From: Shigella phage SFP17
Sequence record: MN432485
DNA: 51,296 nt
Reading direction: 5' to 3' (one strand)
Below the pieces are notes generated by a model that worked only from the letters and a program-made list of their open reading frames with translations, had not been told where the DNA came from and made no database searches. Positions 18,343 to 38,910 of the stretch are shown here, in pieces (the stretch's first letter is position 1; each line of letters opens with the position of its first letter). The position numbers and the translations under genes were made by a program.

Positions 18343-18352
18343 ATAAAAATAA

Positions 18353-18376
18353 AGGGGCGAAAGCCCCTTTTTCTAT
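18353..18376. terminator. bidirectional intrinsic terminator after cor / end of tail operon
   Basis: AGGGGC-gaaa-GCCCCT with T-rich flanks on both strands. Confidence 0.75.
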
Positions 18377-19014
18377 TGGTCGTAAACATCAGTCTTTATT
18401 GCAATTATTGAATTTCCGTTATTTGTTATAGAGCCTGTTCCTGGCGTTGTCCTTGCTGCACCTATCCTTGTGCTTGAACCATCATACCTGCATGATGTAT
18501 ATATGTCAGACGCACCCATACCTATAACCGCACCAAGCCTTGATGGGCAAACAGCATAAGAACCAGATAATGTCTGATCTATATTAGTTCCCCCTGAAGA
18601 ACCAGGAGTACCAATTGTCACAAGGTCTGTTAGCACCCTGCTTTCATTAGTTAAAACCAACTTGCCGCTTGCATCCCATATAGCCATGCCATATTTTGGT
18701 AGAGTTTGAGGGAATATGGCAAATATATAAACAGTCATTGTAAATGATTGACCGTATGGATTGCCTCCGTTTACATAAATGTTGCCACCATTCCTGTAAG
18801 CTATTAATGCAGTTGGCTGCTGTGTGTTTGTTGTTTTTATAAATGCCATACATGGATAAGATTGGTTTAATGGTATATTTGCGCTTGCGCTATGATAGGC
18901 AGAAGTGCCAGAAGATGAATAAGTGTACTTGCCATATAAGCAAAATGGCGTTGATTTTGGTGTGATAAATGGATTCCCATTTGATAAAGATAACATTGCT
19001 CCATATTCAGCCAT
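18373..19014 (-). CDS. putative tail-tip associated protein, paralog B (213 aa)
   Basis: ATG at 19014 with RBS GAGAGGG; N-terminus MAEYG shared with upstream gene; internal WDASGK repeat of the N-terminal WDANGK. Confidence 0.6.
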   Translation of the reverse strand: MAEYGAMLSLSNGNPFITPKSTPFCLYGKYTYSSSGTSAYHSASANIPLNQSYPCMAFIKTTNTQQPTALIAYRNGGNIYVNGGNPYGQSFTMTVYIFAIFPQTLPKYGMAIWDASGKLVLTNESRVLTDLVTIGTPGSSGGTNIDQTLSGSYAVCPSRLGAVIGMGASDIYTSCRYDGSSTRIGAARTTPGTGSITNNGNSIIAIKTDVYDQ

Positions 19015-19321: not shown

Positions 19322-19339
19322 TATTAAACCTCCATAAAT

Positions 19340-19357
19340 GCGGGGCAAACGCCCCGC
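19340..19357 (-). terminator. hairpin after J-like gene (weak terminator)
   Basis: GCGGGGC-aaac-GCCCCGC followed by ATTTAT on minus strand. Confidence 0.35.
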
Positions 19358-19364
19358 TTTGATT

Positions 19365-22300
19365 TTACCACGTACCAGTAAGCCTACCAATCTGAACACG
19401 CAAGCGCCCGTTTGCATCCCTAACGCTGATCGTTTCGTTTGTCATTTTCATGGCTCCCTCTCCAGGAGTAGAACCATAATTTTCAAACGTGCCGTTTTTA
19501 TCCAACCTCCATCCTGTTTGATTCCAAACGTAATTGTTTGATTGGATGAAGTTACCGATCATGGCGTTTGTGATTGATCCGTTCTTAACTAACAAGCTGT
19601 TGATGAATACTTGGTTATTTTCAACAACGAAAGGCAGCGTATACACTCCGCCAGTCGAACTTGTCATGATGGCGAACCTGTTCGCATCAAACAAAATCTG
19701 CGAAATAAGGCCGGATGAACCCTGCGAAAGCTGCATTACCATTCCTGCGCTGTACTGCTGCCCGTTGTAGGTCAATCCCAATTTCATTGCGTACTGTGAA
19801 CCAACGCCATTAACGCCAGCCCATGAATCAAGTTTTTCAGTCAGCGCCGATTCAACATCTCCAAACTTCGCTGTTAATGCTGTATCAGCCGAAACGCGCG
19901 CCTCTGTTTCGTTTGCAATCGCTTCCTCAACCCGCGTTAATTGCCCCTGAATATCATCACCAATCTGTGATTTCAATTCCTCAATGGCTGTTGCTCGCGT
20001 TTCCGATTCTGTTGCAATTGCCTGATCAAGCCTCGTTACTTCGCTAGTTATTTCCTCGTCAAATTCAGCCTTGAGTTGCGTCATTGCGGTAACGCGCGCC
20101 TCAGTTTCACTTGCGATCAATTGGATTGATTGCCTGAATTCGGCTTTGCGTTTTCCGTTTTCCTTCCTCATAATCCTGACGTCTGCATCATTCGCCAATG
20201 CGTTTTGAATGATGCTTTGTGCCTGATCCTTGATTTTGTTTGCGCTATCAATGGCATTCTCTTTCAGATCCTTTCCTGCTTCGGTATCAAAAATCTTATC
20301 AAGAATATCGCCTAAAACAGCCTCCACATCATCTGAAGCCATGCCTCTAACAAAATCAGTCCAGCCGGAAACGTTGCCGATTCTGTCAACGCTGCGGATT
20401 CTATACCATACAACATGACCAGCCGGAAGCGTACCGTGCCAGTATTCATATTGTGGATATGGGATCAGCGTTAACAGGCTTGAGTTTTCCGCTGTTCCAT
20501 CTGGCGACTGATGAAGCTCAATGTATGCCGTGTCTCCGCTCCCTTCTGGCATCCCCCACTTAACACGAATGCCAAACACCTCATTGTCGGATGCTGTTAA
20601 GTTAATTGGCGCGCCTGGCTCTCCTACCTTACCAGTCAGTGAAGCTGTCACAATTCTGGACCAAGGAGACGTAGAACCGGAAGCAGAAACAGATCTAACC
20701 CTTACCTGGTAGTTTCCTGAATAAATACCTTCAACCTCAATTTCTTTGTTTGCAGTCTGTGGTGTATTCAGCCAGTTGCCATCACCTTTTCGCCATTGCA
20801 TTTCATACAGCGATGCGTAAGGTACTTTATCCCACGACACAACCATTGTTTCAACGCTTGCACCCTGGACAATTCGCGAGTATGAGGATATTTGCACATT
20901 TTCCGGTGCTGCCATTGTGTCAGGCTGGACAATTGACGTTGGTCTGTCGTCAATGTTTACTCCATAATCAATCTCGTCGTATTTGTTCGGGTCATATTCA
21001 ACAGCCGTGATGGAGTATGTAAACTCATCATCATCATCACCTTTGCCGATACTCGTTACAACGTATTGCTGCAATGCAATATCAGTGCGGTCGATTGCAA
21101 AAACTGTGTCTGGTTTAACTTCAAACCCAAAACCAATGTTTAGTTCAATAGTTTTTCCGTCACCGCTTACTTTTGAGATTGTGCGCTTAACTGGCTTTCC
21201 GTCCGGTTTGTTGATGATAATGAAATCACCTGGTCGCGCGTCAATCTTAAACGGAGCGAACACCTGCAAGCCGGAAACTTCCATCACGCGCCCTGATAGG
21301 TTTAATTTAAGGTTGCTGCTGTGAAAATTGTCAGCAATAGCAATCACATCACCTATTGATGGGATCATGCCTTCCAGTCCAGTAGCAAAGTTTACCGTAG
21401 TGCTGCGCAAGTTGGTTTTTAGTATCCATCGACCGCGCCGATTAGCCTCACTCCTGCGTGTACATCCGATCGCGGTTATGCTTGTAGGATTGTATCCAAA
21501 GCGCAATGCTGCCTCGTTGTCGAATACGCCCTCTACGTCCTGTTGATACATGTTTTGTTCGTCGTCGAACGTCACGTTGCACTGCGTGTACATGCTCTTT
21601 TCGCTTGCTGTTGTGTACTGAAAATCACCATCAACAACGTTGTCATTGGTGAAGATGTACGACGGATCGCGCGGCTTATCAATGACGATTGACAAGCTCT
21701 CGCCATTCCAAAAGCTCATTCCTCGGAAGATTGAGCAAATATCACGAATAAGCTGATAAGCCTCAATCTGGCTTTGAATCACAACGTCGCATAGATAACG
21801 CGGCTCTGTACCGCCTTTTCCATCCGGCACTTTCTGATCGCAGTATTGCGCCGCTTCGTAAAGACTCCATTTGTCAACCTGCACACCAAGTTCTCGCTGA
21901 TCTAATCCGTATCGCTGGTTTGTGATAATGTCATAAAGAACCCACGCCGGATTGTTCGACCACGCTTTCTTGAAAGTACCATCCCATGAACCGTGATACT
22001 CTCGCATTACCGGATCGTAATTGCTCGGAACATTAATTAACTTCCATTTCTTCTTGATTGAAATGTTAGGGATCTGGTTAGGGAACAACTCACTGTCAAA
22101 TTCAACGTATACAAGACCAGTCAGAGGATAACGGAATTTTGCATCAATAACCTCAGCGTAACTTTGTATCTTAATCAGATCAGTAACACGAGAAGATGCG
22201 CTGTCTGCCGTAACCCTTCTAACCCTAAGTAATACGCGATCATTAAATGCCGGAAGGTCAATCCTTCGGCTCCTGTCGTAACCTGACCGCGTTTTACCTT

Positions 22301-24962: not shown

Positions 24963-24988
24963 TGTATCATCAATAAAAAAGCCGCACA
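24963..24988 (-). terminator. intrinsic terminator between M-like and L-like genes
   Basis: AAGCCGCC-loop-GGCGGCTT then TTTTTTATTG on minus strand. Confidence 0.6.
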
Positions 24989-25001
24989 AAGGCGGCTTGA
25001 A

Positions 25002-25358
25002 TTATTGCATTGATGTAAATTGTTCAGTAAATGTTGCTTTCACTTCCTGAACGGTTGCTGATATTGGAGTTAATCCAACGCTACCAGATTTCACCCTGAA
25101 TAGACCAGGTTGACCGTCAGGCATAAACCATAAAAACGGCTTCAGCCTGTGTCCATTCAGGAAGTCAACAACGTCTCTGTAATCCTTGCCAACATAGACA
25201 ATGGGAAACTCCCTGCGTACCGTGTTAAACCCTCCTGAAGCAACCTGCGTGTAACCATTGCCAAATGAGATTTCCCTGTCGTTATTCGATGTGGTCATAG
25301 TGCCGCCGCCTCCTTGCGTTTGCGTGCACCATTTGAATTGCTCAAGTTTCACTATCAC
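25002..25358 (-). CDS. minor tail protein M-like
   Basis: FKW...FGNGY...FLWFMPDG pattern resembles lambda M as recalled; GTG start overlapping tape measure stop (GTGA). Confidence 0.7.
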
Positions 25359-28027
25359 CCCCGCTTAGACATAACAAATTCATAAACTTCCCCACCCTGC
25401 GTACAGGAACGCTTAATCATATCAGTGAAAATCATTTTTACGCCAGTCTCCAAACCTTTCGGATCGCTTCCGTTGTTAATATCAACGCTGATCCCGCCAA
25501 TATTAAGATTTGTTGCTCCAGATGAAACGCCTCCGCCAGTGTATGAAGATCCACCAACAACGCCGCCATTTGCATAACCGCGCATCATTTTGTAAAGATT
25601 TCCAACTCCGATCCGCTTCGTGGCCTCCTTCGTCATGACAAACTCGCCTTTATGGACAACACCTGCTGGCTCATACTTCCCGCCATCGCCAGTGTATCCA
25701 CCAGTTGCAAATCCAACATTTTTAAGAAGGCTTCCAATCGTCCAAGTGTCACCGCCAACCGCACCGGATATGGCATTAAAGATAACCATCTTCGTGATCA
25801 TCTGGATAATCATTTGGATGATTGACGTTGCGAAGCTCTTAAAGTTTGCCTTACCTGTTGCAAGGAAAGTAGCCATTTGGTTGGTTAGACCGTTGAGCGC
25901 CTCGCTTGCAATATCTTGCACGTTGCCGTACATATCCATTGCATCTTGTCCGTAAACCTCCCATGCGTTCTTTGCTCCTGCAATCCAGTTATTTCTAAGC
26001 TGATCTTCAGTGGCGTAATACTCTTTCAGCTTTGCTTCCATCTGCTGATAAATTTCATCGTCGATACTACCGCCGCCAGCAACATAATCAGTTCGCAACT
26101 TTTTCAATTCAAGCTCTCGCTGGATTTGCAGATCTGTAGCTCCAGACTGTCGCAAGTTCATAGCATCAATGGCATCTGAAGTTTGCTGAATGAACTTTAG
26201 CCCTTCCTGATATTGCTTGTTCTTTCTCTGTTGCAAAACAATCTGATCGCCTATCTCTGCCTTTTCTTTTGCCATAGCAAGAACTGTTTTTTGCTCGTTT
26301 AGTAACGCCTGTTCCGCTTTTGTCAGCTTACGTTTGCTTTGCGCTTCCTCTAGGATCTGGATCTGCTTTTCAATACTCCACAAAGATTGCCTCTGGCGTG
26401 AAATAACATCATTTACAGTTCGGTGCTCTTTCAGCGTTTCAAGTTGCGCCTTGAGAACATATAGCTCCTTATCAAGCTGCTCTGTTGGTGCTTTTACAAC
26501 TCCGCCAACTTTCTCCTTTTGCTGCTGTGCCTTCTTCGCCTCTTCAAGCTCTTTTCGCCTGAACTCAACGTTCTCGGCTGCTCGTTTTTTCAACTCTTCG
26601 TCTGCTGTCCTTGCTACATTTTTCTGATCCTCTATGGCTTTGTTTAAAGCCTCTTGCGCCGCTCGAACTCTGTTTAAGGAAAGATTTTCTCTGTCGATGC
26701 GTGCTGCTCGTTCCGCCATATCCTTATTCGCATCTTTTACGATCTTTCCTATATCCTCATAGGTGTTCTTCGCAAATTGCAACATAGGATTTACATAACC
26801 AAGCTCTTTCCCCAACAGCCCTCCGGACGGTGAAGCATAATCATTCTTCGCTTTTAAGACTTCATACCACGAATCGCCAAGCTCAAGAACCTTGTTTTTG
26901 TGATCAGCAATCTCATTGTTGAGACTTACAAAACTTGATGCATTCTTGTATTCGTTTACCTTTACCTTTGCTTCGTCATAGGTAAACCCAACATCGACGA
27001 GTTTTTGTATGGCCTCGGTTGCTCCATCCTTAGTGCTTATGTATGCCTTTGCCAGATTATCGGCGCTCTCACCTGTCTTGTCAGATAGCGCCTGGATTCC
27101 AGTTGCAATCCGCTCCGCAAAATCACCAGAAAGACCAGTTGCCTCCTGAACGGTTTTTGTGATCTCCTTCAGTTGTGCATTTGCTTTGTATGCATTATAT
27201 GCAGCATAACCAAGAGCACCAGTCAGCGCCGTCATTCCTACACTTAAAGGCGTGACAAATGTCATTAGCGCTTTAAACGTGTTAGCAACACCGCCAAATG
27301 AGTCCTTGATTTGCCCGCCCTGCTGGATTGCGATCATCCATACTGGCATACCTGAAGCAAGAGAAGTAACAACGTCAGTAATCTGCATTGGCAATTGCGC
27401 CATTGCTTGCTTGTACTGCCCCATAGAAACGCCAAGTTTTGAGGCTTGTTTTTCCTGCTCCTTCATTTTTGCAATAAATGGCGCGGCCTCTGCACTAACT
27501 CCAAGTTGTGCGGCTCTCATTTCTACAAGCTCTGATTTTGTTTTTTCCGCTGCGTCAGCTTGCGCCTGCAATGCCGCAATGAACTTTCTTGCCTCAGCCT
27601 CTGCTCTTGCCTTATTTTTTGCTTCCTCAAGCGCTGCGCGGCCTTCTTCAGTTAGTGCCTTTTTAGTTGCGATCAGTTTATTTTGCTGCGTCTCAAGAAT
27701 TGATCCTAACTCAAAGAATGTATCATCCGGCACAATTCCTTTTTTCCAAAGCGCATCAAGCTGTGTCGCAGCTTGGCGCAACTTATCCATTTTGCTTGCT
27801 GTCGGATCTATTGCCGACTGAATTGCTTTAAATTCTTGCTTCTGCTTTGCCAATTCCTCAGCCAGTTGTTTGGCTCTTTGTCTTGCAACAACCTCTGAAT
27901 CAACAAAACTCTCAACGCTCCCCTTTGCGTCGTCGTTTGCCTTCTTGAATTGCTGTAAAGACTTTACAGCATTGTTGAGTTGAGAAACGTCAACCCCAAG
28001 CGTCAAGCCTGCGTATTGTTCTGACAT
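25355..28027 (-). CDS. tail tape measure protein (890 aa)
   Basis: Long alpha-helical Ala/Gln/Lys/Glu-rich protein with Gly-rich C-terminus; RBS GGAGG; follows chaperone pair. Confidence 0.9.
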
Positions 28028-28044
28028 TATTAATCCTCCAGGTA

Positions 28045-28068
28045 ATAAAAAAAGCGCCCGTAGGCGCT
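28045..28068 (-). terminator. intrinsic terminator/attenuator between chaperone and tape measure genes
   Basis: AGCGCC-cgta-GGCGCT followed on minus strand by TTTTTTTT; chaperone stop lies in the stem. Confidence 0.55.
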
Positions 28069-28696
28069 TATTTTGAATGCATCATTTCAAGTGCTTTTTG
28101 CTCCATGATTCGCAAGTCGTTTAGCGCCATCTCGCGATCCTCAACCTTGTAAATCTCAAAAAGCATAGGCAAGACATTATAATCAAATCCGTAAGCGCCA
28201 CCGCCAGAACATCTCCATTGCGTTTGCATTGCGCAAAATATATCCCATGATTGCATCATGCTTTCATCAAATATAACCTCTGGCGGATCTTCTCCTTCAT
28301 AGTCTGCCCTTGTAAGGCCAACGGCCTCAAGCTCTGCATCTGTCGGCGGTTTCTGATAAAACAGGTAAACCGCCCTTTTTAGTTTTTTACTCGCTGCCCC
28401 GCAAGCGCTTTCATGTATGCGCTAGTTAATCCGATTGCTGTTGCTGGGTAGTAATCAAGAAGCTGTTTAATATTTTCTTCGTTAAATTCATCATCAAGAT
28501 TCCAACCTGAAGCAAGGAAGGTGATCATTTCAACATCGCTCATTGGAGTATCTGAAGTGTATCGCTCGTGAATCTCACTTGTTTTGCGGTGGCGAACTGT
28601 GAAGATAATTGTTTGATCTTCTCCGTTAGGTATTGCAAATTTCACTGGTAATTTAAAGTCAGGAAGCGGCCCAATCGTCAATTTCATTTTTGACAT
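28068..28696 (-). CDS. tail assembly chaperone frameshift product (G-T-like) via -1 programmed frameshift
   Basis: Slippery A_AAA_AAC at 28382-28388; -1 frame stays open from the slip site to stop at 28068. Confidence 0.6.
28379..28696 (-). CDS. tail assembly chaperone (lambda G-like)
   Basis: 105 aa directly upstream of tape measure; ends GTA AAA AAC TAA with slippery heptamer. Confidence 0.75.
   Translation of the reverse strand: MSKMKLTIGPLPDFKLPVKFAIPNGEDQTIIFTVRHRKTSEIHERYTSDTPMSDVEMITFLASGWNLDDEFNEENIKQLLDYYPATAIGLTSAYMKALAGQRVKN
28382..28388 (-). other. -1 programmed frameshift slippery heptamer A_AAA_AAC
   Basis: Last codons of chaperone gene read GTA AAA AAC TAA; -1 frame open downstream to 28068. 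Confidence 0.6.
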
Positions 28697-28709
28697 TTCT
28701 TTCTCCTTG

Positions 28710-28729
28710 ATAGCACTTTTTGTTAAAAG
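28710..28729 (+). promoter_or_regulatory. conserved motif copy in reverse orientation relative to flanking tail genes
   Basis: ATAGCACTTTTTGTTAAAAG reads rightward, abutting the RBS of the minus-strand chaperone gene; poor -10 (TAGCAT) at the usual spacing. Confidence 0.35.
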
Positions 28730-28765
28730 AATTGATTATGAATCGTGTAGCATGATTGTACAGTA

Positions 28766-28790
28766 ACAAAAAAAGGGGCGCAACGCCCCT
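28766..28790 (-). terminator. strong intrinsic terminator after major tail protein gene
   Basis: AGGGGCG-caa-CGCCCCT followed on minus strand by TTTTTTTT. Confidence 0.8.
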
Positions 28791-28795
28791 TGTGA

Positions 28796-29458
28796 TTATG
28801 CTACTTGAGAAGGTAGGAAGGTGAATCGACCTTTCAGGGATACAGACAGGGAAACAGTTTCCATTTCGTTAACGGTCGTTTGTGGGATCTCGTTAAACGA
28901 AAGGACACCAGCCCAGCAACGCATCTCTTTCGCTTTCGGTACATACATGCGAAGCGCGGTCACTTCACCGGATTCATCTGCTGCACGAAGTAACGGATAG
29001 ATCGCGTTATCGTATTCGTGCGCAAAAGTGTAGGTCAGAGAAACGGCGCTCTTATAGGTAGGTAACTGCTGCTCCTGGTCGTCCGCCAAACACTGATAAG
29101 TGTAATATTGCTGTTCTCCGCCGTCCTGCGACAAATCCTGAACGCAAGGGATCTCAGTCCATGCATCAATCTTGGCAAAAGATGCAGTGCCGCCAGTCGG
29201 GAACACGTTCTGATCGGTAGTATCAACACCCTCAAGAGTCACGCTTGTTTCTTCACCGTTAGCCTTTACACGCATAACACGATCAATCAGCTTGCCCCAA
29301 GAGGACGCAGTTATGATCACATAATCACCTTTCTTGTACGCAGTGCCACCAGATGCAACGGTGAATACAGGATCTTTAGCGTTTGATACTGCCGTTGCTT
29401 GGATTTCGCTGCCACGATTGCTCTCAACGAAAATTTGCGATCCATTTGGTAAATGCAT
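28796..29458 (-). CDS. major tail protein
   Basis: 220 aa with strong RBS AAGGAG, followed by strong intrinsic terminator; position upstream of chaperones. Confidence 0.7.
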   Translation of the reverse strand: MHLPNGSQIFVESNRGSEIQATAVSNAKDPVFTVASGGTAYKKGDYVIITASSWGKLIDRVMRVKANGEETSVTLEGVDTTDQNVFPTGGTASFAKIDAWTEIPCVQDLSQDGGEQQYYTYQCLADDQEQQLPTYKSAVSLTYTFAHEYDNAIYPLLRAADESGEVTALRMYVPKAKEMRCWAGVLSFNEIPQTTVNEMETVSLSVSLKGRFTFLPSQVA

Positions 29459-31405: not shown

Positions 31406-31435
31406 ATAAAAAAGGGAATCCAGTTAAGGATTCCC
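31406..31435 (-). terminator. intrinsic terminator after major capsid gene
   Basis: GGGAATCC-agttaa-GGATTCCC followed on minus strand by TTTTTTATTGG. Confidence 0.75.
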
Positions 31436-32423: not shown

Positions 32424-32469
32424 TTTCTTCCTCCATATATAAAGGTCGTTAGTATGTAACGGACCAATG

Positions 32470-32489
32470 ATAGCATTTTTTGTTAAACG
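32470..32489 (+). promoter_or_regulatory. conserved motif copy in reverse orientation relative to flanking capsid genes
   Basis: ATAGCATTTTTTGTTAAACG reads rightward between two minus-strand capsid genes; poor -10 (TATGGG). Confidence 0.35.
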
Positions 32490-32954: not shown

Positions 32955-32979
32955 ATAAAAAAGGCGCTCAGTGAGCGCC
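32955..32979 (-). terminator. intrinsic terminator between the two capsid-associated paralogs
   Basis: GGCGCT-loop-AGCGCC followed on minus strand by TTTTTTATATTT. Confidence 0.65.
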
Positions 32980-36684: not shown

Positions 36685-36710
36685 AATAAAAAAGGCTGGA
36701 TTTACCAGCC
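36685..36710 (-). terminator. intrinsic terminator/attenuator between terL and portal
   Basis: GGCTGG-attta-CCAGCC followed on minus strand by TTTTTTATTGG, immediately before the portal RBS. Confidence 0.6.
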
Positions 36711-36740
36711 TTTGATTATATATTGGTTTGTCGATTCGTG

Positions 36741-38881: not shown

Positions 38882-38903
38882 AAAAAACCCGCCATTTGGC
38901 GGG
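38882..38903 (-). terminator. intrinsic terminator upstream of terminase genes
   Basis: CCCGCC-attt-GGCGGG followed on minus strand by TTTTTT; a TATAAT hexamer follows before the terS RBS. Confidence 0.65.
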
Positions 38904-38910
38904 TAGTTGG

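What the first reader, a model, noticed from the sequence alone, without database searches (positions are those of the whole stretch)
28068..28696. Programmed -1 frameshift in tail assembly chaperone, followed by a terminator before the tape measure gene
The chaperone gene ends GTA AAA AAC TAA, containing the slippery heptamer A_AAA_AAC, and the -1 frame remains open to 28068, giving a G-T-like fusion. An intrinsic terminator lies between the fusion stop and the tape-measure RBS, which may tune tape-measure stoichiometry.
Basis: partly seen in the sequence, partly recalled or inferred. Interest (0 to 1): 0.35.

Follow-up and report, generated by a model that had tools for sequence, protein, structure and literature searches.

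The report
T1-like phage tail chaperone frameshift
This is the standard "G/GT" ribosomal frameshift of a phage tail-assembly chaperone gene, followed by a conserved transcription terminator before the tape-measure gene; both are real but already described for phage T1 and its relatives, so the finding is ordinary.

Summary
The window is a T1-like coliphage (Hanrivervirus, Drexlerviridae), 99.4% identical to Escherichia phage damhaus over the region.

- The chaperone gene (28696..28379, Pfam Phage_TAC_4) ends GTA AAA AAC TAA.
- The -1 frame stays open for 104 codons, to the TAA at 28070..28068 (Pfam DUF1799).
- A canonical terminator (hairpin 28069..28052 plus a T-run) lies between that stop and the tape-measure RBS.

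Comparison with 23 related loci supports function:

- The heptamer followed directly by a stop is present in 20 of the 23. One more carries G_GGA_AAC before its stop.
- Amino-acid conservation in the -1 frame starts at the slip site.
- 58% of substitutions there fall on third codon positions.
- The terminator stem pairs in 100% of cells across 13 lineages, with compensatory changes at 4 of its 7 pairs.

Both features are already known in this family. The T1 RefSeq record annotates the terminators, and phage Stevie's record and genome paper annotate the joined frameshift CDS. Terminator abundance is a published hallmark of T1-like phages. That the terminator tunes tape-measure stoichiometry is plausible, because there is no room for a promoter before the tape-measure gene, but it is untested. 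Interest is low.

The parts
28796..29458 (-). Major tail (tube) protein gene, 220 aa
   Evidence: Pfam PF08813 Phage_tail_3 E = 1.9e-64; phrog_584 major tail protein.
28766..28791 (-). Intrinsic terminator after the major tail gene: AAGGGGCG-TTG-CGCCCCTT plus a T-run
   Evidence: Annotated at the same place in T1, G29-2 and Stevie.
28755..28783 (-). Candidate sigma-70 promoter for G/GT. The -35 TTGCGC (28783..28778) lies in the loop and 3' arm of the upstream terminator, followed by a 17-nt spacer and the -10 TACAAT (28760..28755).
   Evidence: A TTG-type -35 and a TAnAAT-type -10 are found in 9 of the 14 loci scanned, mostly at 17-nt spacing and in several subfamilies. Prediction only. The consensus scan preferred a second candidate, TGTACA-16-CATAAT at 28762..28735.
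28708..28729 (-). Copy of the T1-family 21-22-nt repeat (ATAGCACnnnTTGnTAAAA). It is antisense to the gene and abuts the G ribosome-binding site.
   Evidence: The repeat is described in TLS (PMC11447400) and in Stevie and T1 (PMC4319613). It is conserved at this position in T1 and several genera. Whether it belongs to G/GT expression is unknown.
28379..28696 (-). Tail assembly chaperone gene G (105 aa), with RBS AGGAG at 28707..28703
   Evidence: Pfam PF08748 Phage_TAC_4 E = 6.3e-31, full length; phrog_569 and phrog_17368.
28382..28388 (-). Slippery heptamer A_AAA_AAC, the last two sense codons of G plus the preceding A
   Evidence: Read directly from the sequence. Identical heptamer in 20 of 23 related loci, including T1 and Sodalis phage SO-1. 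G_GGA_AAC in a Pseudomonas phage.
28379..28381 (-). G stop codon TAA immediately 3' of the heptamer (a 'shifty stop' context). In the -1 frame it is part of CTA (Leu) and AAA.
   Evidence: A stop (TAA or TGA) follows the final G codon directly in all 23 loci with an intact frame, and the -1 frame Leu is kept (CTA or CTG).
28345..28374 (-). Possible stimulatory hairpin 7 nt after the heptamer: GGCGGUUU-AC-CUG-(UUUUAU)-CAG-AAACCGCC
   Evidence: -15.1 kcal/mol, z = -2.0 on 55 nt. Present in Tempevirinae and Tunavirinae, lost in Braunvirinae, Rogunavirinae and Webervirus. 77.6% of cells paired, weak covariation. Inconclusive.
28068..28385 (-). T segment: the -1 frame reading from the slip site to TAA 28070..28068. 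The GT fusion is 209 aa.
   Evidence: Pfam PF08809 DUF1799 E = 7e-13; phrog_17368 positions 108-211 and phrog_680. Coding signature.
28044..28069 (-). Intrinsic terminator: AAGCGCC-UACG-GGCGCUU (a C(UACG)G tetraloop) plus a T-run, overlapping the T stop codon
   Evidence: 100% paired in 13 lineages, 4 of 7 pairs with changes on both sides, 0 of 500 shuffles as good. Annotated in T1, Stevie, G29-2 and EC3a.
25355..28039 (-). Tape measure protein gene (890 aa, ATG at 28027) with RBS GGAGG at 28039..28035. There is no promoter-sized gap after the terminator.
   Evidence: Pfam TMP_2 and Tape_meas_lam_C. The intergenic gap is 40 nt here and 22-43 nt in the other Drexlerviridae.

Best explanation
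This is the G/GT tail-assembly-chaperone locus of a T1-like siphovirus.

Most ribosomes translate G (105 aa) and terminate at the TAA right after A_AAA_AAC. A small fraction slip back one base on the heptamer. This could be tandem P/A-site slippage, or slippage of the P-site Asn tRNA while the slowly decoded stop waits in the A site. Those ribosomes read on through CTA AAA AGG ... for 104 more codons and make a 209-aa GT fusion. By analogy with lambda (inferred), the G part binds the tape measure protein and the T part recruits the major tail protein. Neither product ends up in the virion.

The weak-in-E.-coli heptamer with an adjacent stop would keep GT a minor product. A hairpin 7 nt downstream may help in this lineage.

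At the RNA level, G/GT looks like a small unit. A predicted promoter overlaps the major-tail terminator, and a strong, conserved intrinsic terminator sits on the T stop codon. The tape-measure gene follows 40 nt later without a promoter of its own. Tape-measure and downstream tail genes must therefore be transcribed by read-through, which would step down their mRNA level relative to the major tail protein and the chaperones.

Shown: the anatomy, the homology, the conservation, the coding constraint in the -1 frame, and selection on the terminator hairpin. Inferred: that frameshifting actually occurs and how efficiently, the slip mechanism, promoter activity, partial termination, and its effect on stoichiometry.
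For: - Sequence and frames.
- Identity as a Hanrivervirus at 99.4% to phage damhaus.
- Domain assignments and the single PHROG profile spanning G and T.
- Heptamer plus stop and a 103-108-codon -1 extension across Drexlerviridae, Dhillonvirus SO-1 and a Pseudomonas phage (which has G_GGA_AAC).
- T-frame protein conservation starting at the slip site, with a non-conserved internal Met.
- Codon-position bias of 372/257/858 differences.
- Terminator conserved with different stem sequences and stable tetraloops (UACG, UUCG, GNRA). Formal pair count of 100% paired with compensatory changes at 4 of 7 pairs.
- Enrichment of perfect-stem terminators, 14 observed against 0.27 expected.
- Same features annotated in relatives. 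T1 has terminators at 18770-18796 and 19508-19527 around genes 40 and 39. Stevie has a joined CDS plus both terminators.
[quoted passage not shown] Skenny has a G/GT-like frameshift (PMC6763657). The lambda G:GT ratio is 30:1 and A_AAA_AAC is less shift-prone than A_AAA_AAG in E. coli (PMC5009743). T1 late genes are described as 'transcriptons' flanked by terminators (PMC11447400).
Against: - I found no experimental detection of a GT product, and no termination measurement, for any T1-like phage in the held literature.
- A_AAA_AAC is a poor shifter in E. coli (PMC5009743), so the efficiency could be very low.
- The downstream hairpin is not conserved family-wide.
- Weberviruses have GCA AAA GTC TAA, without a full heptamer. 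The family can therefore manage with a different or weaker site.
- One close relative (Shigella phage 2019SD1, L006) has A5 instead of A6, which would break the -1 relationship if it is not a sequencing error.
- The terminator's role in stoichiometry is one of several possible roles, such as mRNA 3'-end stabilisation.
Confidence: 0.85

Rival explanations
1. The downstream ORF is a separate small gene, translated on its own from the internal ATG at 28259 (63 aa), with no frameshifting. Several GenBank records annotate it this way.
For: Henu8 annotates a 63-aa 'putative tape measure chaperone' from that ATG. T1 annotates gene 39 as 19339-19506. Sd1, CS01 and TR2 annotate similar short ORFs.
Against: - The -1 frame is conserved at protein level from the slip site on ([15 protein letters not shown]), 40 codons upstream of that Met, with a third-position substitution bias.
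- The Met is absent in Webervirus, L013 and L022.
- Pfam DUF1799 and phrog_680 matches begin at residues 23 and 10 of the -1 product, before the Met.
- No Shine-Dalgarno sequence precedes the ATG.
- phrog_17368 models G and T as one protein.
Confidence: 0.05
2. GT is made by transcriptional slippage. RNA polymerase adds one extra A in the A6 run, putting T in frame on a fraction of mRNAs, so the ribosome does not slip.
For: The site is a homopolymeric A6 run. An mRNA with A7 would encode the same fusion. Transcriptional slippage is an established route to such fusions in bacteria (PMC5009743).
Against: From general knowledge, efficient slippage by bacterial RNA polymerase needs runs of about 9 or more A or T, and six is short. 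The related Pseudomonas phage uses G_GGA_AAC, a heptamer with no long homopolymer. The conserved X_XXY_YYZ phasing and the adjacent stop are features of ribosomal slippage, not polymerase slippage.
Confidence: 0.04
3. The hairpin after T is mainly an mRNA-stabilising 3' end or a processing element (or a bidirectional barrier) rather than an attenuator that sets tape-measure dosage. Relative protein levels are set by translation, as in lambda.
For: The tape-measure gene has a strong GGAGG RBS. T1-like genomes carry such hairpins after many genes regardless of stoichiometry. The TLS re-annotation could not confirm the 'transcripton' model (PMC11447400).
Against: The T-run directly after the stem is nearly invariant across lineages while the stem sequence changes. 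That is the signature of intrinsic termination, not of a mere stabilising hairpin. The two roles are not mutually exclusive.
Confidence: 0.2

Closest known systems
Phage lambda G/GT programmed -1 frameshift (Levin 1993; Xu, Hendrix & Duda 2004, 2013, as cited in PMC5009743)
   Same: Two overlapping ORFs lie between the major tail and tape measure genes. A -1 slip on an X_XXY_YYZ heptamer near the end of the first ORF produces a minor fusion product. Lengths are similar (G about 105-140 aa, extension about 100-140 aa).
   Different: The heptamer is A_AAA_AAC, with the G stop immediately adjacent, rather than lambda's G_GGA_AAG. The protein families differ at the Pfam level: Phage_TAC_4 and DUF1799 here, versus what I recall as the lambda gpG and gpT families. 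In this phage the locus is bracketed by intrinsic terminators. From memory, lambda's late operon has no terminators here and is antiterminated by Q.
Orthologous locus of phage T1 (genes 40/39) and T1-like phages such as Citrobacter phage Stevie
   Same: Same gene order, same heptamer plus TAA, same -1 extension, same terminators on both sides. G is 56-58% identical in protein sequence.
   Different: Only sequence divergence. T1's record annotates gene 39 as a short separate ORF, whereas Stevie's record annotates the joined frameshift product. The closest Hanrivervirus records (damhaus, G29-2, Henu8) do not annotate the fusion.
IS1 insAB' and E. coli dnaX -1 frameshift sites (A_AAA_AAC and A_AAA_AAG)
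   Same: An A-rich heptamer is decoded by Lys and Asn tRNAs in E. coli. In dnaX a downstream hairpin stimulates the shift (PMC5009743 for dnaX; the IS1 A6C site is from my own recollection).
   Different: dnaX uses the much more shift-prone AAG codon plus an upstream Shine-Dalgarno sequence and a strong hairpin, for about 50% efficiency. Here the weaker AAC codon, an adjacent stop and a modest, non-universal hairpin suggest a low level.

Membership tests
Conserved G/GT-type tail assembly chaperone frameshift of long-tailed phages (Xu et al. 2004) | Two ORFs located between the major tail protein gene and the tape measure gene | tested here: met
   Major tail protein (PF08813), then G and T, then tape measure protein (PF06791 and PF09718), all on the minus strand.
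Conserved G/GT-type tail assembly chaperone frameshift of long-tailed phages (Xu et al. 2004) | The second ORF overlaps the end of the first in the -1 (or +1) frame and lacks its own conserved start codon and RBS | tested here: met
   The -1 frame is open from 39 nt upstream of the G stop to 28068. The first ATG is 42 codons in, is not conserved, and has no Shine-Dalgarno sequence.
Conserved G/GT-type tail assembly chaperone frameshift of long-tailed phages (Xu et al. 2004) | A slippery sequence (X_XXY_YYZ) in the correct phase within the overlap | tested here: met
   A_AAA_AAC at 28388..28382 in phase. Conserved in 20 of 23 loci.
Conserved G/GT-type tail assembly chaperone frameshift of long-tailed phages (Xu et al. 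2004) | The arrangement is conserved among relatives, with protein-coding constraint on the extension | tested here: met
   (58% of differences at third codon positions).
Conserved G/GT-type tail assembly chaperone frameshift of long-tailed phages (Xu et al. 2004) | A fusion protein is actually produced at a low ratio and is required for tail assembly | not testable with these tools
   No proteomic or genetic data for a T1-like phage were found in the held literature.
Pfam Phage_TAC_4 (PF08748) and DUF1799 (PF08809) chaperone pair of T1/TLS-like phages | Scores above the Pfam gathering thresholds for both halves | tested here: met
   107.6 bits against a cut-off of 21.1, and 49.0 bits against a cut-off of 26.
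Rho-independent (intrinsic) terminator | A G+C-rich stem-loop followed immediately by a U-tract on the transcribed strand | tested here: met
   A 7-bp stem (5 G-C pairs), a UACG tetraloop and a T7 run.
Rho-independent (intrinsic) terminator | Structure maintained by selection (compensatory changes) with a conserved U-tract | tested here: met
   100% of 91 cells paired, 4 of 7 pairs changed on both sides, 0 of 500 shuffles as good, T-run columns invariant.
Rho-independent (intrinsic) terminator | Transcripts end there in vivo or in vitro, with a measured efficiency | not testable with these tools
   No transcriptome or term-seq study of a Drexlerviridae phage was found.
Downstream RNA stimulator of -1 frameshifting (dnaX-type hairpin) | A stable stem-loop 5-9 nt 3' of the heptamer, conserved or covarying among relatives | tested here: inconclusive
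   The hairpin starts 7 nt after the heptamer. It is kept in Tempevirinae and Tunavirinae and absent in other subfamilies. 77.6% of cells paired with weak covariation, confounded by conserved RAV/KPP codons.

The most novel reading that the evidence does not exclude
In T1-like phages the chaperone pair may be an autonomous promoter-to-terminator unit.

- The -35 element of its promoter would sit in the loop of the preceding major-tail terminator, a terminator-promoter composite with conserved 17-nt spacing.
- The tape-measure gene would depend entirely on read-through of the terminator that overlaps the T stop.
- The chaperone:tape-measure ratio would then be set transcriptionally.
- The G:GT ratio would be set by competition between termination and slippage at an invariant 'heptamer plus stop' (A_AAA_AAC_UAA).
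- The family-specific ATAGCAC...TTGnTAAAA repeat sits antisense against the G ribosome-binding site and might add a further regulatory layer.

None of this is excluded by the evidence, and none of it has been tested.
Probability: 0.3. Interest if true: 0.35.

Novelty: already known. Interest (0 to 1): 0.15.

Why it matters
The main value is practical. Most GenBank and RefSeq records of this genus (damhaus, G29-2, Henu8 and others) miss the fusion, call a truncated downstream ORF, or label G as 'tail length tape measure protein'. The comparison here gives the exact slip site and a 209-aa GT product for correct annotation.

Biologically it adds one more well-conserved example of the G/GT rule. 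It also shows that T1-like phages combine the frameshift with flanking terminators, so dosage of tail components may be stepped down at the RNA level as well as the translational level. This is a modest, testable point and not a new kind of system.

Tried and rejected
1. Chance ORF: rejected, because the -1 extension, its residues and its codon-position bias are conserved.
2. Independent initiation of T at ATG 28259: rejected as the main route, for the reasons given under rival explanations.
3. Enrichment of the heptamer itself: tested and not enriched. The motif alone is therefore no evidence.
4. Rfam scan of 27900-28900: only sub-threshold sRNA-tail hits that reflect the terminators, and no curated frameshift element.
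5. PDB sequence search with the 209-aa fusion: nothing meaningful.
6. The downstream hairpin as a conserved stimulator: only lineage-limited support.
7. Literature searches for experimental GT detection or transcriptomics in T1-like phages: none found. Xu et al. 2013 (PMC3762263) is not held, and I did not try to fetch Xu et al. 2004. I therefore could not check whether T1 itself was listed there.
8. A promoter between the T terminator and the tape-measure gene: the 40-nt gap holds only the T-run and the RBS, and any -10-like AT-rich hexamer would place the transcript start inside the Shine-Dalgarno sequence. Rejected as implausible.

Full report
**What the window is.** The 1-kb stretch 27900-28900 is 99.4% identical to Escherichia phage damhaus and 98-99% identical to about 40 other members of the genus Hanrivervirus (Drexlerviridae, the T1-like phages) (taxonomy). 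The structural genes run on the minus strand.

**Checking the observation.** Reading the minus strand and listing ORFs gives this layout:
- A 220-aa major tail protein gene at 29458..28796.
- A 105-aa ORF at 28696..28379.
- An 890-aa ORF at 28027..25355.

The 105-aa ORF ends ...CAG CGA GTA AAA AAC TAA. The heptamer A_AAA_AAC is 28388..28382 and the stop is 28381..28379. The -1 frame reads AAA CTA AAA AGG GCG ... and stays open for 104 codons to the TAA at 28070..28068. One backward slip would therefore give a 209-aa fusion.

The sequence AAGCGCC-TACG-GGCGCTT follows at 28069..28052, with a run of seven T's. Next come GGAGG (28039..28035) and the ATG at 28027. The only correction is that the terminator stem begins inside the TAA rather than after it.

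**Is it more than chance?** The heptamer by itself is not: there are 20 copies in the window against 21.9 +/- 4.2 in shuffles. The context is.

- *Homology.* Pfam assigns the 105-aa product to Phage_TAC_4 (E = 6e-31, full length). It assigns the -1 product to DUF1799 (E = 7e-13), the upstream gene to the tail tube family, and the downstream gene to lambda-type tape measure domains. PHROG profile phrog_17368, 213 positions long, is matched by the first ORF at positions 1-107 and by the -1 product at positions 108-211. The family has therefore already been modelled as one fused protein.
- *Conservation.* I gathered 24 related loci, 23 of them with an intact frame: 10 from IMG/VR and 14 from GenBank, spanning 99% to 32% chaperone identity.
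  - Of the 23, 20 have the identical heptamer followed directly by a stop codon. These include T1 itself and the Dhillonvirus SO-1.
  - A Pseudomonas phage has G_GGA_AAC TGA.
  - The Webervirus example has GCA AAA GTC TAA, with no full heptamer.
  - All 23 keep a 103-108-codon -1 extension.
- *Coding constraint.* The -1 frame amino acids are conserved from the slip site onward ([21 protein letters not shown]...). The internal methionine that some records use as a start is not conserved. Over the first 34 codons after the stop, pairwise differences among ten lineages fall 372/257/858 on codon positions 1/2/3. This is the signature of a translated frame in a stretch that no independent start codon could reach.

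**The terminator.** The stop-to-tape-measure gap is 22-43 nt in all sampled Drexlerviridae. In each it holds a G+C-rich hairpin plus a T-run. The stem sequences differ (GCGCC/GGCGC, GCCGCC/GGCGG, CCCGC/GCGGG, CCTCC/GGAGG, CCATCC/GGGTGG), and the loops are stable tetraloops (UACG, UUCG, GNRA).

A formal count on 13 lineages gives 100% of 91 cells paired and 4 of 7 pairs changed on both sides. The covariation score is 0.456 against 0.154 in shuffles (0 of 500 as high), and pairing collapses when the partners are slid. The T-run columns are invariant or nearly so. The hairpin is therefore under selection as a structure, and the U-tract marks it as an intrinsic terminator.

It is not unique. A strict scan for perfect stems plus a T-run finds 14 such sites in the window against 0.27 expected. 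Seven are on the gene strand of the structural module: after the terminase, capsid, major tail, T and gpM-like genes, among others.

**What surrounds it.** The major-tail-to-G intergenic region holds a second terminator (28791..28773 plus a T-run). Overlapping it is a promoter-like pair:
- TTGCGC (28783..28778), in the loop and 3' arm of that hairpin.
- A 17-nt spacer.
- TACAAT (28760..28755).

A TTG-type -35 and a TAnAAT-type -10 recur in 9 of the 14 loci scanned, mostly at 17-nt spacing, even though the DNA has otherwise diverged. In the Braunvirinae, where an extra gene intervenes, a TTGCAA or TTGTAA -17- TAGAAT or TATAAT pair sits directly upstream of G. This is a prediction only.

By contrast, nothing resembling a promoter fits between the T terminator and the tape-measure gene. 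The simplest reading is that G/GT is a short promoter-to-terminator unit and that the tape-measure and following genes are transcribed by read-through. This is the 'transcripton' picture proposed for T1 and quoted, with reservations, in the TLS re-annotation (PMC11447400).

**Mechanism.**
- *Shown:* anatomy, homology, conservation, coding constraint and terminator covariation.
- *Inferred:* ribosomes slip -1 on A_AAA_AAC at low frequency. In E. coli this heptamer is much less shift-prone than A_AAA_AAG (PMC5009743). That fits a product needed in small amounts, since the lambda G:GT ratio is 30:1 (PMC5009743).

The invariant stop immediately 3' of the heptamer suggests that slow decoding of the stop contributes. 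The same protein results whether one tRNA or two tRNAs slip.

A hairpin starts 7 nt after the heptamer (28374..28345, -15 kcal/mol) at the right distance to stimulate slippage. It is kept only in Tempevirinae and Tunavirinae, and its arms encode conserved residues. The pair count is weak (77.6% paired), so I rate it inconclusive.

**Rivals.**
- Independent translation of a 63-aa ORF from ATG 28259 is annotated in some records. It is contradicted by the conservation and the codon bias upstream of that ATG.
- Transcriptional slippage on A6 would give the same product. The run is short, however, and a relative uses G_GGA_AAC.
- The hairpin could act chiefly as an mRNA stabiliser. The conserved U-tract argues for termination, and the two roles can coexist.

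**Comparison with what is known.** This is the conserved G/GT tail-chaperone frameshift first shown in lambda and generalised by Xu, Hendrix and Duda (2004, cited in PMC5009743). Within the T1 family it is already on record:
- The Stevie record carries a joined frameshift CDS with terminators annotated on both sides.
[quoted passage not shown] - The Skenny announcement says the same of a Webervirus (PMC6763657).
- The T1 RefSeq record annotates terminators at 18770-18796 and 19508-19527, around genes 40 and 39.

Rfam has no matching family, and no relative has a solved structure detectable by sequence. I found no experimental measurement of the frameshift or of termination in any T1-like phage.

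**Verdict.** The feature is already known for this phage family. The useful residue is an annotation correction for Hanrivervirus records and a few side observations, listed separately. Interest is low (0.15).

Noticed in passing
window 28708-28729 and 32468-32489 (minus strand); further copies at 602, 5720, 6740, 9264, 18041, 40955, 43658, 44956, 45961, 46424, 47824, 48701, 49198 and 51222: The T1-family repeat ATAGCACTTTTTGTTAAAA has 16 copies at 3 or fewer mismatches (the 22-mer search expected 0 by chance).

In the early regions it points with transcription. About 20 nt downstream there is a CATAAT, TATAAT or TATAGT hexamer, and 35-45 nt beyond that an RBS and ATG. There it behaves like part of an early promoter, often with a short palindrome in the spacer.

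The two copies in the late module, upstream of G and upstream of the major capsid gene, are antisense to the genes. The one before G abuts its Shine-Dalgarno sequence and is conserved there in T1 and several genera.

Published papers call the function of this repeat unknown (PMC11447400, PMC4319613).
   Followed up: partly
window 28755-28791 (minus strand): Terminator-promoter composite. The -35-like TTGCGC lies in the loop and 3' arm of the major-tail terminator hairpin, 17 nt upstream of TACAAT. A comparable pair recurs in 9 of the 14 Drexlerviridae loci scanned, mostly at 17-nt spacing.
   Followed up: partly
L006 2300-2370 (IMG/VR copy of Shigella phage 2019SD1, NC_049820): The A-run at the slip site is A5 instead of A6 (GTAAAAACTAA). 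This extends G by 17 codons in another frame and breaks the -1 relationship with T. It is probably a homopolymer sequencing error, since all other Hanriverviruses have A6.
   Followed up: partly
L019 1810-1830 (Klebsiella phage Alina, Webervirus): The chaperone ends GCA AAA GTC TAA with no X_XXY_YYZ heptamer, yet the 105-codon -1 extension and the RRAVYL motif are kept. Slippage there would have to use a single tRNA on A_AAA_G, or a site further upstream. Weberviruses are the largest group among the 1006 phage records with a G homologue.
   Followed up: no
L021 2175-2562 (Sodalis phage SO-1) and L013, L022: Outside Drexlerviridae the compact 'terminator then tape-measure gene' junction is not kept. 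SO-1 has a 384-nt repeat-rich region (GCGGGACAAA... units, annotated 'region A') between T and the tape-measure gene. The Pseudomonas phage has an extra gene there.
   Followed up: no
window, whole length; for example 38887-38904, 36692-36712, 32963-32979, 31414-31435, 24979-24998 (minus strand) and 18352-18369 (both strands): Perfect-stem intrinsic terminators are strongly enriched: 14 observed against 0.27 +/- 0.5 in dinucleotide shuffles. The site at 18352-18369 reads as a terminator on both strands, between convergent genes.
   Followed up: partly
L003 (RefSeq NC_049827, phage damhaus), locus 1-113 and 1705-2022: There are annotation oddities in the closest RefSeq record. A small head-tail gene is named 'ribonucleoside-triphosphate reductase'. 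The chaperone G is named 'tail length tape measure protein'. The T frame is not annotated at all.
   Followed up: no
window 28047-28053 compared with L001-L008: The terminator T-run is T7 in the window but T6 in the closest relatives. This is a trivial homopolymer length difference.
   Followed up: no
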